Positions 5,747 through 9,963 of a DNA stretch of 11,307 nucleotides are shown here, in pieces. The stretch's first letter is position 1; each line of letters starts with the position of its first letter. The stretch lies in the UHGV virus genome UHGV-0356378; one strand, given 5' to 3'. The DNA is from a virus. The notes beneath the pieces are model-generated. The model made no database searches and was not told the origin of the DNA. It saw only the letters and a list, made by a program, of their open reading frames with translations. A program made the translations under genes and the position numbers.

Positions 5747-7744
5747 CTATTCTGACAACGCATCAGACTTAGCCCCCTGCGTCAGAGCGTTAATTGCCTT
5801 TTGTGCCTGCTGCATTGCTTTCTCAAAGGCTGTTGATCCGCGTGGGGTGTTTGCCATTCGGAGCATTGCATTTCTGAATGTTTCGCTCTCATAGGCGCGA
5901 GTAAGAAGTCCGTAGCTTACTGCTGCGCCAGTTGTCGCCGGGTTCATTGCCGTCCCATACCCGATAATGAACGGGATGGTTTGCTGCCCTGTTGGTGTTG
6001 TTACTGCCGCTTTTGCTGCCTGCTGAGTGGACTGAAGGTAATTTTTCAATCCTTTCAGATAAGCAGCGTCCTGCCCCTTAAATGTGATGCCAGTCTGGTT
6101 TTGCAGGGTGTTAAGCTGTCGAAGGAACTGGTCAGGGGAACCACCTGATTTCTCCATCGCCTTTCCAATGATGCCATTGCGCATTTGCGCCCTGCCAATA
6201 CGACCAACTGAGTTATACAGCGTCTTAATTTCCGATTTGTTCTTGCTGAATAGCATGTTGTTGACAACTTCCGGCGTCAGGTCGCCTTTCATGAGAACAT
6301 TCTTCAGCCTGGTATTCTTTAGTTTCGCCGCTTCGTCAGCGTAGACGGCATTGGCCTGCTGATATTTACGGAGAGTATCGTTGCCAAGATTCTGACCAAT
6401 GGCACCATTGATATCGTCTGTCATTGCCTTGTAAACGCGCTGAATGGCAGCATCGGAACGGTTTGGTAACACTGGTCGTTCCCCCTTCACGTCCATTCTG
6501 AACTGGCTGCGCAGATCGCTTAATTGCTTCAAATCCAGATTTACCGGACCATCAGGGCCAGCATTGCGAACAAGCTCATCACGATAGGACTGAAGTTTTG
6601 AAATTGTCTCGTTATCAGCAACCTTACCAAGCTTCTGCAGGTTAGATATTTCTGTATCAATCTGCTGAATTGCTCTTGCAGGCTGAATGTTTATTCCCGC
6701 CATAGCATTCTGAACCTGCTCCAGTCGATTTCCTGCAGCGCGACGAATTCCTGATGTTTTCGCTTTAAGGCTGTCAATAACAACCGCTGGATCATACTCA
6801 CCGAATTTATCAGCAAATCTCTGCACCAACTGGCTTCTCGCTTCCTGTTGCGTTGCTCTCATTCCGCTTGTGCCAGCCAGGGGGATATTTTCTGCTGTCG
6901 TTTGCGCCATTTTTCCGACGCGGGAAGTGGGTTGTAACAGGTCTGTGGTGTGCAGAGGAACACCTTCACGCTCTGCAAATCTGATAGCCTGCTGCGCTTC
7001 TGGCGCAATAGCACCACGAACGCCACGATAAGCAGCACCTAATCCACGCCCGGCAGCGTTAATAGCACCGCCAGCAAGTACACCAACGCCTAAATCGGTG
7101 GCGAGTGCTTCCGCATCATCTTTCGCACTATTTGCAGCAAGTGATCCAACTGCGTTTTCTGCTAGAAGGCGAGTTGCCCCCTGAGCAATTCGACCAGCAA
7201 GTGTTGGTGCCTGTACCGCCGCTCTCTCAACGCCAGCAGGAGTGAGGTAAGGCAATGCTTCAGCAAATACCTTTCCCTCTGTCGTTTGTGGAGTCAGCGC
7301 ACCTTGCTGAAGGCCAAAGTCCTGCTCTAATCCCTGCGTTGTTACTCGTGGTGCTGGTTGATATGTACCATCGCCAATACCGAGTTTACCGCCAGCCCAA
7401 GCCGCCGCGCTTGTTACAGCATCGGCAACTGATGCAGGTATGTTTGCCACGTTCACGCCGGCCTGCACCAGTCCGCGACCAGTCTCTTTTACTGCTTCAC
7501 CAAGATCAGACATAAATCCACTTTGCTGTGGTTGTTGCTGTGCTACTGGTTGTTGTGTCTCCACTGGCTGCACAGATGGCAATGGATAGGCAGCATAGAA
7601 AGCTTGCTTAGCCTGCTCTGCATTTTCTCCGGCTTGCGGGGCAACGACTTCATTGAAGTATTGCTCCTGAGCCTGCGCTTTTTGTTCTGGTGCTAACGCC
7701 TGATACTGTGGAGAGGCGATAACATCTTTCCATGCTTTAGCCAT
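5747..7744 (-). CDS. Ejection (DNA-transfer) protein of the P22 gp16 type, 665 aa
   Basis: Third gene of a gp7-gp20-gp16 set immediately upstream of the tailspike, as in P22-like late operons. Its start overlaps the stop of the upstream gene (TAATG). Ala/Gln-rich low-complexity segments are typical of these proteins. Assignment by synteny and size; P22 gp16 is about 609 aa. Confidence 0.8.
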   Translation of the reverse strand: MAKAWKDVIASPQYQALAPEQKAQAQEQYFNEVVAPQAGENAEQAKQAFYAAYPLPSVQPVETQQPVAQQQPQQSGFMSDLGEAVKETGRGLVQAGVNVANIPASVADAVTSAAAWAGGKLGIGDGTYQPAPRVTTQGLEQDFGLQQGALTPQTTEGKVFAEALPYLTPAGVERAAVQAPTLAGRIAQGATRLLAENAVGSLAANSAKDDAEALATDLGVGVLAGGAINAAGRGLGAAYRGVRGAIAPEAQQAIRFAEREGVPLHTTDLLQPTSRVGKMAQTTAENIPLAGTSGMRATQQEARSQLVQRFADKFGEYDPAVVIDSLKAKTSGIRRAAGNRLEQVQNAMAGINIQPARAIQQIDTEISNLQKLGKVADNETISKLQSYRDELVRNAGPDGPVNLDLKQLSDLRSQFRMDVKGERPVLPNRSDAAIQRVYKAMTDDINGAIGQNLGNDTLRKYQQANAVYADEAAKLKNTRLKNVLMKGDLTPEVVNNMLFSKNKSEIKTLYNSVGRIGRAQMRNGIIGKAMEKSGGSPDQFLRQLNTLQNQTGITFKGQDAAYLKGLKNYLQSTQQAAKAAVTTPTGQQTIPFIIGYGTAMNPATTGAAVSYGLLTRAYESETFRNAMLRMANTPRGSTAFEKAMQQAQKAINALTQGAKSDALSE

Positions 7745-9171
7745 TAATCACCCCATAGTGAAGAAAAGTTACTGCTGGCTGCTGGCTGTGATACCTGTGC
7801 AGGTTGAGATTGCTGCCGCTGAGATTTACCAACATTAACGTTATATTGTTGGTTGTAATTGTTAGTGTATTCCTGAATCTCACGAATCGACTGCTGCATA
7901 GCCTCCGGGCTTGAATAGTCAACCTGCGGCATCCCCTGAAAATACATCTTCGCTTCTGCAACGGTGTTAATACCACTGGCACCCATGTCCCTTGCTGCCG
8001 CCACGCCCTGATTCTGCATTCTTCCCTGAATACGTTGTGCTGAGTTATATAACTGGCGCTGCTCTTTTCCTGTTAATCTGCTGCGAACATCAGCACCAAT
8101 TGCCGGGTTACCTGCGCCGCCGGTCATTCCTGTCATGAAATCGAGAGCAGAAGCATCTGCATTTGCGATCGCGTCGATATCCTTCTTCATGGCATAGTTT
8201 TGTGCTGATGCAGACGATGTTGCAGGAGCAGCGATTGAACTGGCAGGAACGCGAACCATATTCCCCTCGTTATCGATGCCTTCGTAGAACGCATTATCCC
8301 CAGCGCCGTGAAGTTTCCCGCCTACCGTTACCGTTCTACCATCTGCCAGTTGCACAACATTCTCCCCGCCAGCATCAGGACGGCCTCGAACACGAAGATA
8401 TGTCTTTTGTTGCTCTGGAGACAGGCTGTTGAAATATTGATATTCTTTAACAGATGCAGGAACAGCACCTCCAGCAGTGCGCAGGGAGTTTTCACGGCTA
8501 ACAGCAATGCTTTGCGCCTGTAAACCTTCCCCAGCTTTATTGCTGCGAATCGTCTCTGCCAACTCGCCACGCTCAATATCCCGACCAGCCATCTTGTCCT
8601 GAACATTGAAGTAGTCAATCGGACCGAGAGCAGCCATCCCAAGGTGATCAACAAACTCACCAAATCCTGAAGGGTTCTGCTGATACATCTGAGCAACGCT
8701 GTTAGGGTCAACACCGACGCGAGTCAGTTCCTTGGCGTTGTTTTGCAGCCATGATTGCATTGCTTCTGGAGACGATGACGCAAGGCGTGCGCCAGCCGCT
8801 AAGGTGCCGATAGAATTACGCTGCTCTTCATCAATGAATCCCATGCCTTTACGAACGGATTCAATCTGGTCTGGATATTGAGTAGCCAACTGACGCAAAG
8901 CACCGCGATCACCAGACGCATAAGCATTAGCGTATGCCTGCTGAAATTCTTTCTGCCGCTGAGCCTGCTTTTCCTGCTGAAACACCCCCGCAATACCTGA
9001 AAGGCCTTGCAAAGCAGTCAGCCCAACATTGTTAGCGCCTGAACGCTCAATATCATTGTTCTGCCTGATAAGCTGAAGCGTATTGCCGATGTCATTTACG
9101 CTCGGAGCGTTTGAGTTGACGCCGCCGATACCAGCCAACAATCCGCCGTTTGTTCCTTGCCAAGTAGCCAT
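7744..9171 (-). CDS. Ejection protein of the P22 gp20 type, 475 aa
   Basis: Size is almost the same as P22 gp20 (about 471 aa). It sits between the gp7-like and gp16-like genes, has a GGGG ribosome-binding site, and is translationally coupled to the downstream gene. Confidence 0.8.
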
Positions 9172-9180
9172 GATTACCCC

Positions 9181-9873
9181 TTAAAACAACGAGCCAAGCA
9201 ATCCGATACCAGCACCAATGCCAGCGCCCCAAGGCGTTGATGTTCCCAAAAGGCTGGCAAGACCTGCACCGGCAATCGCACCAGACGTGCCACCGCTAAT
9301 TGCAGTCTGAAGACTTGATGGTTTATTGGCATTAGCAGCGGCAAGTGCTGCGCTTTGCTGTGCAATGCTGCTCATGTTGTTGGCGTACGTCTGCCCGGCG
9401 TTTGCCTGACCTTGCAGCGCACCAAGCCCAACGTTTGCCAGATTGTTGTAATTGCTCATCTGGTTTGATAACCAAGACTGACCGAGAGTCGGCGCGATCG
9501 TAGCCAGTTGATTGCTTGTGGCTGTCGAACCAAGTCCACCCGTCGCCTCCGCAGCAGCAAGACTCTGGTAACGCGCCTGACCTGCAAGGTCTTTATACTG
9601 CTGAGAGTTGTAATACTGATTAAGTGCCTGCCCCTGACCTTCTAAACTGGAAAGATTCTGCAACTGGTTAACATACTGCTCCGCAAGAGGCGTGAACGGA
9701 GCAAGGTTTTTCATGATCGTCTGCCACTGCTGATTTTGCAGGTCTGCTGCATACTTCTGAGCTTCTGCGGCATACTTTGCGCTTTTATCAGAACTTCCGC
9801 CTTTCCCACCCTTTTCAGGGCAATAAGGTTCCTCGCCGCGCAGTTTTCTGCCCAGCTTAAATGCATATAACAT
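9181..9873 (-). CDS. Ejection protein of the P22 gp7 type, 230 aa
   Basis: Size matches P22 gp7 (about 229 aa). N-terminus MLYAF.LGRKLRGEEP...EKGGKGGS and a Gly/Ala-rich C-terminus are consistent with my recollection of gp7. A GGGAG ribosome-binding site precedes the ATG. First gene of the retained late-operon segment. Confidence 0.8.
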   Translation of the reverse strand: MLYAFKLGRKLRGEEPYCPEKGGKGGSSDKSAKYAAEAQKYAADLQNQQWQTIMKNLAPFTPLAEQYVNQLQNLSSLEGQGQALNQYYNSQQYKDLAGQARYQSLAAAEATGGLGSTATSNQLATIAPTLGQSWLSNQMSNYNNLANVGLGALQGQANAGQTYANNMSSIAQQSAALAAANANKPSSLQTAISGGTSGAIAGAGLASLLGTSTPWGAGIGAGIGLLGSLF

Positions 9874-9963
9874 GGCTATCTCCCGTGATTCAGGAAGTCG
9901 ATTAGTTCTTCGCGTGTTGCGCTGTAAAAAGTCACGTCATCCACGCCTTTGAAGTATTTCTTG

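What the first reader, a model, noticed from the sequence alone, without database searches (positions are those of the whole stretch)
5747..9963. Intact ejection-protein genes and tailspike kept in an element with no capsid genes; sharp deletion junction at 9874-9963
Four consecutive late genes (gp7-, gp20-, gp16-like and tailspike) show no frameshifts or internal stops and keep ribosome-binding sites and translational coupling. Everything upstream in a P22-like late operon (gp14, gp26, gp10, gp4, coat, scaffold, portal, terminase), together with lysis, late activator, replication and immunity genes, is absent. Only about 90 bp separate the gp7-like start codon from a plus-strand gene of early-region type. 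Either the deletion is very recent, or these genes are under selection. The second possibility includes a satellite-like lifestyle in which the element supplies its own tailspike and ejection proteins to virions built by a helper P22-like phage, aided by the retained integrase/excisionase pair. The late promoter is gone, so it is unclear what drives these genes.
Basis: inference. Interest (0 to 1): 0.6.

Follow-up and report, generated by a model that had tools for sequence, protein, structure and literature searches.

The report
Young defective Sf6-like prophage remnant
This is an ordinary, recently formed remnant of an Sf6/P22-like prophage at the E. coli argW tRNA gene: one 28-kb deletion removed the head, lysis, replication and immunity genes, and the DNA-ejection and tailspike genes look intact because too little time has passed for them to decay, not because the element is a phage satellite.

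Summary
The window is E. coli FDAARGOS_1248, argW to dsdC. It holds a 10.8-kb remnant of an Sf6-like (P22-like) prophage, bounded by the 16-nt IntS/TorI att core. The gp7-, gp20-, gp16-like and tailspike genes are intact. The tailspike lies at 3369-5582, outside the stated span. The "90-bp spacer" is the last 35 codons of gp14. The true junction is a 4-bp TTAA microhomology at 9979-9982.

The junction occurs in 1 of 5,426 complete E. coli genomes and on 21 other public contigs. These form one near-clonal lineage (0-2 SNPs in about 12 kb of host flank), so the deletion is young.

- The Wzy-tailspike block differs by 3 nt in 4,972 from an intact prophage (strain B25FEP).
- One carrier has a frameshifting 43-bp deletion in the tailspike. 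Two carriers each have a nonsynonymous gp16 change.
- At least 12 independent argW remnants in other strains break in portal, gp10, gp14, gp7, gp20 or gp16, and some have disrupted tailspikes.
- No replication, packaging or regulatory gene, and no promoter-like site for the late genes, was found.

Verdict: a recent deletion with neutral retention. The satellite reading is unsupported. One side result: within the lineage the intS-cargo-tailspike cassette has been swapped.

The parts
313..387 (+). argW tRNA-Arg(CCT), the integration target
   Evidence: ARAGORN; RefSeq annotation
373..388 (.). attL core CTGCAGGGGACACCAT
   Evidence: Exact 16-nt repeat at 373 and 11167. It is the same core as published for KplE1 (PMC2951348). 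Matches to free phages wrap from 373 to 11182.
549..1706 (+). intS tyrosine integrase, intact
   Evidence: Pfam PF00589, PF22022 and PF13356; annotated as IntS
1988..3331 (+). Wzy-like 'O-antigen polymerase' cargo gene (447 aa, about 33% GC), probably a lysogenic-conversion gene
   Evidence: RefSeq product name; PHROG 14022; no Pfam hit; GC profile. It differs by 2 nt from the copy in the intact B25FEP prophage.
3369..5582 (-). Tailspike (737 aa): N-terminal head-binding domain plus a receptor-binding part
   Evidence: PF09008. It shows 0 differences in 2,214 nt from the intact B25FEP prophage.
5747..7744 (-). gp16-like ejection protein (Sf6 gp13 type), intact
   Evidence: PHROG 770; PF26808 on identical copies
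7744..9171 (-). gp20-like ejection protein, intact
   Evidence: PF16928
9181..9873 (-). gp7-like ejection protein, intact
   Evidence: PF25688, full length
9876..9983 (-). gp14 (DUF2824) C-terminal remnant, 35 codons, a pseudogene
   Evidence: RefSeq pseudo CDS; alignment to intact gp14 genes
9979..9982 (.). Deletion junction: TTAA microhomology shared by the gp14 side and the sequence just upstream of ASCH. About 28 kb is missing.
   Evidence: Size comes from the B25FEP prophage (39.2 kb against 10.8 kb) and from LR-29-1.
9985..10269 (+). ASCH-domain early-left gene. It is complete, but its SD is deleted. A new in-frame ATG at 9964 gives a 101-aa, junction-specific ORF.
10342..10509 (+). 55-aa early-left ORF of unknown function
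   Evidence: PHROG 676; annotated
10534..10749 (+). 71-aa ORF, not annotated in RefSeq, a phage family of unknown function
   Evidence: PHROG 15342, E 6.7e-52
10893..11093 (+). torI excisionase (recombination directionality factor)
   Evidence: RefSeq TorI WP_001163428.1; PHROG 66
11167..11182 (.). attR core CTGCAGGGGACACCAT

Best explanation
The element is a cryptic (defective) Sf6-like, P22-type prophage at argW.

**How it formed.** A single illegitimate, microhomology-mediated deletion (TTAA, window 9979-9982) removed about 28 kb. The lost tract runs from inside gp14 through the tail needle, gp10, gp4, coat, scaffold, portal, terminases, lysis genes, Q, nin region, replication genes, immunity region and most of the early-left operon, ending 2-6 nt before the ASCH start codon.

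**What remains.**
- The IntS/TorI/attL/attR recombination module. By analogy with KplE1 it is probably still able to excise (inferred).
- A Wzy-like O-antigen cargo gene. It may be expressed and useful to the host (inferred).
- Four late genes that have lost their Q-dependent late promoter. They are probably silent or transcribed only by read-through (inferred).

**Why the late genes are intact.** The deletion is young, so they are passengers between the breakpoint and the integrase end. They are not maintained for a function. Decay has begun in at least one carrier.
For: - **Architecture and junction.**
- **Closest free phages** are HF4s, Sf6 and IME10, with matches wrapping through attP.
- **An intact relative** with the same Wzy and an identical tailspike exists at argW in strain B25FEP. 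There are only 3 differences across window 1585-6556.
- **Rarity in complete genomes.** The junction is in 1 of 5,426.
- **One young lineage.** The exact gp20 protein and the junction-specific 101-aa ORF occur on 24 and 21 contigs, and every place shown has the same architecture. Variant-A carriers are 100% identical over as much as 21 kb. Variant B has 1 SNP in 8.8 kb of right flank and 1 SNP in 3.2 kb of left flank.
- **Changes inside the lineage.** gp16 A113V, gp16 T298P and a 43-bp frameshifting deletion in the tailspike (stop after 27 aa). No isolated synonymous change was seen.
- **Independent remnants.** At least 12 other structures at argW have scattered late-side breakpoints: portal (PSS-11); a gp10 fragment joined to gp7 (NCCP12480); gp14 (strain 5735); gp7 (SZQ1); gp7 lost or gp20 broken (Tig228, 730V1, S1); gp16 (65COLEC, the SCZE5 group, 873.10, PSJ-12). 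gp16 has an internal stop in S1. The tailspike is IS1-disrupted in the SCZE5 group and truncated in 873.10.
- **No promoter.** No sigma-70-like site lies on the minus strand in 5400-11307.
- **Published precedent.** KplE1 at the same site is a 10.2-kb defective prophage that can still be excised and has the same att core (PMC2951348).
Against: - Every long carrier contig except one keeps all four genes open.
- Lineage-specific codon changes against intact prophages are 14 synonymous to 2 nonsynonymous. This shows purifying selection somewhere on that branch. It cannot be dated relative to the deletion, and most of these changes are probably unsampled phage polymorphism.
- The frameshifted tailspike comes from a single metagenome-assembled contig and could be an assembly error.
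- Expression was not measured, so silence of the late genes is inferred only.
Confidence: 0.85

Rival explanations
1. Satellite-like element. The remnant excises with IntS/TorI and relies on a helper Sf6/P22-like phage for capsids. It supplies its own tailspike and ejection proteins, and selection keeps these genes intact.
For: - An intact int/xis/att module and four intact late genes.
- The same junction persists in many samples with the genes open.
- The tailspike cassette has been exchanged within the lineage, so the locus does interact with phages or foreign DNA.
Against: - No replication gene, small terminase, capsid-size or packaging-redirection gene, or repressor/antirepressor was found. 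The complete gene list is int, wzy, tailspike, gp16, gp20, gp7, ASCH, two small ORFs and torI.
- The packaging region inside the terminase genes is deleted.
- No promoter-like site was found for the late genes.
- There is no second copy of the ejection genes, so no similar resident helper in the source genome (one place in the record).
- All carriers are one near-clonal lineage, which indicates vertical rather than horizontal spread.
- One carrier has a frameshifted tailspike.
- Independent remnants break at many different points.
Confidence: 0.03
2. The late genes are retained because they benefit the host cell directly. For example, the tailspike might act as an O-antigen-trimming enzyme working with the Wzy-like polymerase, or the ejection proteins might interfere with superinfecting phages.
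For: - The tailspike and the O-antigen cargo gene are adjacent and travel together as a cassette.
- Most argW remnants surveyed keep an O-antigen-modifying gene next to intS.
Against: - Retention of the tailspike follows from its position between the cargo gene and any breakpoint. The survey also required part of gp16 to be present, which biases it.
- The tailspike is disrupted in the SCZE5 group and in 873.10, and frameshifted in L037.
- gp7, gp20 and gp16 are lost in various remnants.
- The genes have no promoter-like site.
Confidence: 0.07
3. Assembly artefact or a laboratory-passage deletion private to the sequenced stock.
For: Only one of 5,426 complete genomes has the junction. Exact junction patterns gave 0 hits in JGI metagenome contigs and in the GTDB representative genomes.
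Against: The identical junction and architecture occur on 21 or more independently assembled contigs from ENA, NCBI and Logan samples.
Confidence: 0.01

Closest known systems
KplE1 (CPS-53) defective prophage of E. coli K-12 at argW
   Same: - The same integration site and the same 16-nt att core, CTGCAGGGGACACCAT.
- The same IntS/TorI recombination module, with intS transcribed away from attL.
- A similar size (10.2 against 10.8 kb).
- No repressor or lytic modules (PMC2951348).
   Different: From my own knowledge, KplE1 carries gtrABS-type genes, tail-fibre-assembly fragments and yfd early genes. This remnant instead keeps the P22-type ejection genes and a tailspike plus a Wzy-like gene. It was made by a different deletion and is much younger. 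Its excision was not tested.
Sf6-like temperate podophages (Sf6, HF4s, IME10, HK620, CUS-3; P22-like, genus Lederbergvirus)
   Same: About 95-96% nucleotide identity across int, the ejection genes, torI and attP. The gene order matches: gp14, gp7, gp20, gp16, tailspike, conversion gene, int.
   Different: About 28 kb of essential genes is missing, so the element cannot make virions, replicate or lyse. The conversion gene is a Wzy-like polymerase rather than Sf6's O-acetyltransferase.
Phage satellites (PICI, cf-PICI, P4-like)
   Same: Small size, an integrase plus excisionase, and integration at a tRNA gene.
   Different: There is no replication module, no helper-sensing regulator and no packaging or capsid-redirection genes. 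No described satellite family (my own knowledge) carries only tailspike and ejection genes. The element is confined to one clonal lineage.
The variable argW-dsdCXA island of E. coli, and the pervasive deletion decay of prophages
   Same: Many independent deletion derivatives sit at the same site. The variability of this island is already published (Moritz & Welch 2006, cited in PMC8787464).
   Different: This junction and lineage have not, to my knowledge, been described individually.

Membership tests
Sf6/KplE1-type argW prophage (IntS/TorI recombination module) | IntS-type tyrosine integrase next to argW, transcribed away from attL | tested here: met
Sf6/KplE1-type argW prophage (IntS/TorI recombination module) | 16-nt core CTGCAGGGGACACCAT duplicated at both ends, with the TorI RDF gene at the attR end | tested here: met
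   PMC2951348
P22-like (Sf6-like) phage late module | gp7/gp20/gp16-type ejection proteins followed by a tailspike with the P22 head-binding domain, in that order | tested here: met
Intact (inducible) P22-like prophage | Complete head, portal, terminase, tail-plug, lysis, replication and immunity modules | tested here: not met
   blastn and tblastn with the B25FEP prophage interior found nothing in the window. Only a 108-bp gp14 fragment remains.
Cryptic/defective prophage | Prophage-derived DNA at its att site that lacks the genes essential for lytic growth | tested here: met
Cryptic/defective prophage | Evidence of ongoing decay rather than conservation | tested here: inconclusive
   One frameshifted tailspike and two nonsynonymous gp16 changes among about 17 informative carrier contigs. 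The numbers are too small, and the frameshift rests on a metagenome contig.
Phage satellite (PICI / cf-PICI / P4-like) | Own replication module (primase/helicase or Rep, plus an origin) | tested here: not met
   No such ORF among the 10 genes. tblastn with replication proteins was negative.
Phage satellite (PICI / cf-PICI / P4-like) | Packaging hijack: small terminase, a pac/cos site, or capsid-size redirection | tested here: not met
   No terminase, coat or portal similarity and no candidate ORF. A cryptic pac-like site cannot be excluded by sequence alone.
Phage satellite (PICI / cf-PICI / P4-like) | Helper-responsive regulatory switch (master repressor or activator) | tested here: not met
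   TorI is the only DNA-binding protein encoded.
Phage satellite (PICI / cf-PICI / P4-like) | Helper-dependent induction and high-frequency transfer | not testable with these tools
   This needs experiments. The distribution is clonal, which argues against horizontal spread.

The most novel reading that the evidence does not exclude
The remnant could be an excisable mini-element whose tailspike and ejection proteins are expressed when an Sf6-like phage superinfects. They would then be built into the helper's virions (pseudotyping), changing the helper's host range or promoting transfer of the element. That would be a satellite-like strategy based on adsorption and ejection proteins rather than on capsid or packaging hijack. 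The evidence here makes this unlikely but does not formally exclude it, because expression and trans-complementation were not tested.
Probability: 0.03. Interest if true: 0.75.

Novelty: new member of a known kind. Interest (0 to 1): 0.2.

Why it matters
The main value is as a caution. An open, well-formed block of phage structural genes inside a gutted prophage is not evidence of selection when the deletion is young. Here the tailspike is DNA-identical to that of an intact prophage, and all carriers belong to one clone.

Two side results have modest value.
- The argW site holds a natural nested series of independent deletion derivatives of Sf6-like prophages. This series could be used to measure rates and biases of prophage decay.
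- Carriers of one and the same deletion junction differ by a clean replacement of the intS-cargo-tailspike cassette. A dead prophage can therefore still exchange its serotype-conversion and receptor-binding module, plausibly with superinfecting phages.

Tried and rejected
- **Exact junction patterns in other collections.** A 38-nt pattern and a degenerate 25-nt pattern gave 0 hits in JGI metagenome contigs and in GTDB representative genomes. Taken alone this suggested a private deletion. Protein-identity look-ups then found 21-24 carrier contigs, so I dropped the "private to one strain" conclusion.\n- **Branch-specific syn/nonsyn counts against intact prophages** (14:2). This matches intact phages and cannot separate evolution before the deletion from evolution after it. 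I rejected it as a test of selection on the remnant.\n- **Search for the donor of the variant-B cassette** in complete E. coli genomes. The best match was 87% identical, so the donor is unsampled.\n- **Search for a near-identical intact parent** of the gp7-gp20-gp16 5' segment. The best match was 98% (M160133), and the exact gp20 protein was found only in remnant carriers.\n- **Promoter scan.** No minus-strand sigma-70-like site was found. One weak minus-strand terminator-like site lies at 10511-10495. Read-through from the convergent host gene dsdC remains a speculation.\n- **Pfam** gave no hit for the Wzy-like protein, gp16, ASCH or the small ORFs. PHROGs placed them all in phage families.\n- **Strain no107** looked like a remnant. 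It is a tandem or permuted arrangement in an error-rich assembly.\n- **Not tested.** Whether the source genome carries a divergent P22-like prophage elsewhere. Only similar copies of the ejection genes were excluded.
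Full report
**1. What the window is**

The 11,307-bp window matches E. coli FDAARGOS_1248 (NZ_CP069542.1, 1884128-1895434, reverse strand) at 100%. It runs from the end of yfdC to the end of dsdC. 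The layout is below.

| Feature | Window coordinates | Strand |
|---|---|---|
| argW tRNA-Arg(CCT) | 313-387 | + |
| attL core CTGCAGGGGACACCAT | 373-388 | |
| intS | 549-1706 | + |
| Wzy-like "O-antigen polymerase", low GC | 1988-3331 | + |
| Tailspike | 3369-5582 | - |
| gp16-like | 5747-7744 | - |
| gp20-like | 7744-9171 | - |
| gp7-like | 9181-9873 | - |
| gp14/DUF2824 pseudogene fragment | 9876-9983 | - |
| ASCH-domain gene | 9985-10269 | + |
| Small ORF, 55 aa | 10342-10509 | + |
| Small ORF, 71 aa | 10534-10749 | + |
| torI | 10893-11093 | + |
| attR core | 11167-11182 | |

Sources for the layout are. The 16-nt core is exactly the one published for KplE1. The same paper reports that Sf6, HK620 and CUS-3 carry this recombination module (PMC2951348). 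The closest cultured phages are HF4s, Sf6 and IME10 at about 95-96% identity. Their matches run from 373 to 11182 because torI, attP and int are contiguous in the free phage.

**2. Checking the observation**

The four late genes are real and intact. Family matches are strong and RefSeq calls them intact CDS. SD-like motifs precede all four starts, and the gp20 stop overlaps the gp16 start as TAATG. Nothing from the head, portal, terminase, lysis, Q, nin, replication or immunity regions of an intact relative remains in the window (blastn and tblastn).

Three details need correction.
- The tailspike lies outside the stated span.
- The "90-bp spacer" is the last 35 codons of gp14.
- The junction is at 9979-9982. 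The gp14 side reads ...CTAC(A/T)CGCTTAA|GGCC.... The ASCH side reads ...GCAGGAGGTTAA|CCGTGGC.... The window reads ...CTCGCTTAACCGTGGC.... This is a 4-bp TTAA microhomology typical of illegitimate recombination.

The ASCH protein is complete and identical to the copy in an intact prophage context. It has lost its AGGAGG SD and gained an in-frame ATG at 9964. The B25FEP prophage is 39.2 kb and this element is 10.8 kb, so about 28 kb is missing. The LR-29-1 prophage, which has ASCH in the same position, gives about 27.8 kb.

**3. How old and how widespread the deletion is**

Among 5,426 complete E. coli genomes only the source genome spans the junction. Exact junction patterns gave nothing in JGI metagenome contigs or in GTDB representative genomes. 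Look-ups by exact protein gave a different answer.
- The gp20 protein is on at least 24 contigs.
- The junction-specific 101-aa ASCH ORF is on 21 contigs, and one of these contigs was recorded in 9 samples.
- Every place shown has the same architecture and the same spacing.

Variant-A contigs are 100% identical to the source genome over as much as 21 kb, host flanks included. Variant-B contigs (GCA_023012135.1 and two Logan assemblies) have the same junction. Across window 5341-19171 they carry a single SNP, a synonymous change in dsdC. They carry one more SNP in 3.2 kb of left flank.

The deletion therefore happened once and marks one near-clonal lineage with about 1-2 x 10^-4 flank divergence. 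At that divergence, fewer than one substitution is expected in the 6.3 kb of late genes. Open reading frames are what neutrality predicts (inference).

An apparently intact argW prophage in strain B25FEP gives the same answer. It differs from window 1585-6556 by only 3 nt in 4,972. There are 0 differences in the 2,214-nt tailspike and 2 in the Wzy-like gene.

**4. Is there a signal of selection on the late genes?**

I compared the remnant with intact prophages (M160133, 23CRST025, E21845/O/A, B25FEP). Its private codon changes in gp7, gp20 and gp16 are 14 synonymous to 2 nonsynonymous. The intact prophages give the same pattern: 14:3, 25:1 and 8:2. This shows purifying selection during phage history. 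It cannot be dated relative to the deletion.

Inside the carrier lineage, where changes must post-date the deletion, I found the following.
- gp16 A113V in SRR11484346.
- gp16 T298P in ERZ28649357.
- In that same contig, a 43-bp deletion at about 5495-5537. It frameshifts the tailspike after codon 15 and gives a stop after 27 aa.
- No isolated synonymous change.

One metagenome contig (ERZ28646058) carries 20 clustered differences, 18 of them synonymous, in gp16, gp20 and gp7. These look like conversion patches or assembly chimerism. The numbers are small and two of the contigs come from metagenome assemblies.

**5. Independent remnants at the same site**

I searched with the right host flank plus the ejection genes as a 25-kb query. 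This ranks genomes in which the ejection genes lie within 13 kb of dsdC. About 25 of the top 60 records are such deletion derivatives. Annotation of 12 distinct structures shows scattered late-side breakpoints.

| Strain(s) | Late-side breakpoint and state |
|---|---|
| PSS-11 | In portal, next to an IS3 |
| NCCP12480 | gp10 fragment joined to gp7; cI, cro and cII kept |
| 5735 | In gp14; 138 bp kept, joined to ead/Ea22 |
| SZQ1 | In gp7 |
| Tig228 | gp7 lost; gp20 fused after the endolysin |
| 730V1 | gp7 lost |
| S1 | In gp20; gp16 has an internal stop |
| 65COLEC | In gp16; 903 bp kept |
| SCZE5, ECJXMCRH7, XH993 | In gp16; 1,875 bp kept; tailspike split by IS1 |
| 873.10 | In gp16; 216 bp kept; tailspike truncated |
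| PSJ-12 | In gp16; 213 bp kept |

The ranking favours remnants that keep more of the module. Even so, only 3 of the 12 (5735, NCCP12480 and PSS-11) keep all four genes. The common denominator is intS, in most cases torI, and usually an O-antigen-modifying gene. It is not the ejection set. The pattern fits random internal deletions that remove the lethal centre of the prophage. Genes near the int end survive because of where they sit.

**6. The satellite hypothesis**

The complete gene content is int, a wzy-like gene, tailspike, gp16, gp20, gp7, ASCH, two small ORFs of unknown function and torI.
- It has no replication gene, small terminase, capsid- or packaging-redirection gene, or repressor.
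- The terminase and pac region is deleted.
- No sigma-70-like site precedes the late genes on their strand.
- The source genome has no second copy of similar ejection genes.
- The distribution is clonal, not horizontal.

Only the int/xis/att feature of satellites is met. I therefore rate this reading at about 3%. It remains formally open only because expression and trans-complementation were not tested.

**7. Mechanism (shown and inferred)**

Shown:
- a single TTAA-mediated deletion of about 28 kb;
- an intact IntS/TorI/att module;
- loss of the late promoter region;
- a young clonal distribution;
- first signs of decay.

Inferred:
- The element is probably still excisable, as KplE1 is.
- The Wzy-like gene is the part most likely to matter to the host.
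- The late genes are silent passengers. The only upstream transcription on their strand would be read-through from the convergent host gene dsdC across 1.4 kb of antisense early genes (speculation).

**8. A side result worth recording**

Variants A and B share the junction but differ across window ~450-5340. Variant B has a different intS allele (about 45 substitutions, mostly synonymous). It has an acyltransferase (PF01757) in place of the Wzy-like gene. It also has a 680-aa tailspike whose sequence switches within codons 81-112 of the head-binding domain.

Variant B keeps the B25FEP-like tract 5341-6556, which is contiguous with the A cassette in B25FEP. Variant A is therefore probably ancestral, and B arose after the deletion (inference).

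The left boundary lies at or just inside attL and the right boundary lies in a conserved domain. This fits two routes. One is a double crossover with a superinfecting Sf6-like phage. The other is IntS-mediated integration beside the remnant, followed by collapse through homologous recombination. Tandem arrangements at argW do exist (no107; a second integrase fragment after torI in SZQ1). The donor cassette is not among the complete genomes (best match 87%).

**9. Verdict**

This is an ordinary, young, lineage-specific cryptic prophage of the Sf6/KplE1 type. Interest is low. The nested deletion series at argW and the cassette swap inside a dead prophage are the only mildly notable points.

Noticed in passing
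window ~450-5340; loci L024, L025/L033, L026/L034: Carriers of the identical deletion junction come in two versions. Variant A has Wzy plus a 737-aa tailspike. Variant B has a different intS allele, an acyltransferase and a 680-aa tailspike. The crossover lies in tailspike codons 81-112 and at or near attL. The intS-cargo-tailspike cassette was therefore replaced after the deletion, probably from a superinfecting phage.
   Followed up: partly
L037 (ENA ERZ28649357), corresponding to window ~5495-5537: A 43-bp deletion in the tailspike of the same remnant frameshifts the gene, giving a stop after 27 aa. The same contig has gp16 T298P. It is a metagenome assembly, so this needs read-level confirmation.
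   Followed up: partly
L029/L035 (ENA ERZ28646058), window 6017-6199, 8935-9004, 9538-9574, 9793-9811: Twenty differences, 18 of them synonymous, are clustered in four short patches of gp16, gp20 and gp7 in an otherwise identical remnant. They are either gene-conversion patches from related phages or a chimeric metagenome assembly.
   Followed up: no
window 1988-3331: A 447-aa multi-pass membrane protein is annotated as an O-antigen polymerase (about 33% GC, no Pfam hit, PHROG 14022 of unknown function). It occupies the lysogenic-conversion slot between intS and the tailspike. In other argW prophages the same slot holds gtrABC, acyltransferases, EpsG, a GDSL esterase or other Wzy-like genes.
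   Followed up: partly
window 9964-10269: The deletion removed the ASCH gene's AGGAGG ribosome-binding site. It created an in-frame ATG 21 nt upstream, within antisense gp14 sequence. The result is a junction-specific 101-aa ORF that proved useful as a marker for finding carriers.
   Followed up: yes
window 358-373 and 10858-10873: An exact 16-nt copy of part of the argW T-arm (TTGCAGGTTCGATTCC) lies just upstream of torI, about 300 bp inside attR. It may be a relic of an older att or tRNA fragment, or part of the recombination arms.
   Followed up: no
window 10534-10749: A 71-aa ORF is not annotated in RefSeq but matches a phage protein family over its full length (PHROG 15342, E 6.7e-52).
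   Followed up: partly
argW loci L005, L007-L010, L015-L021: At least 12 independent deletion derivatives of Sf6-like prophages at argW form a nested series. Two pairs of breakpoints nearly coincide: the gp14 3' end (108 and 138 bp kept) and the gp16 3' end (213 and 216 bp kept). These may be local deletion hotspots.
   Followed up: partly
L004 (strain no107) and L005 13969-14595 (SZQ1): In no107, torI is directly followed by another intS. In SZQ1, a second partial integrase follows torI. Both indicate tandem integrations at argW. The no107 assembly is rich in frameshifts.
   Followed up: no
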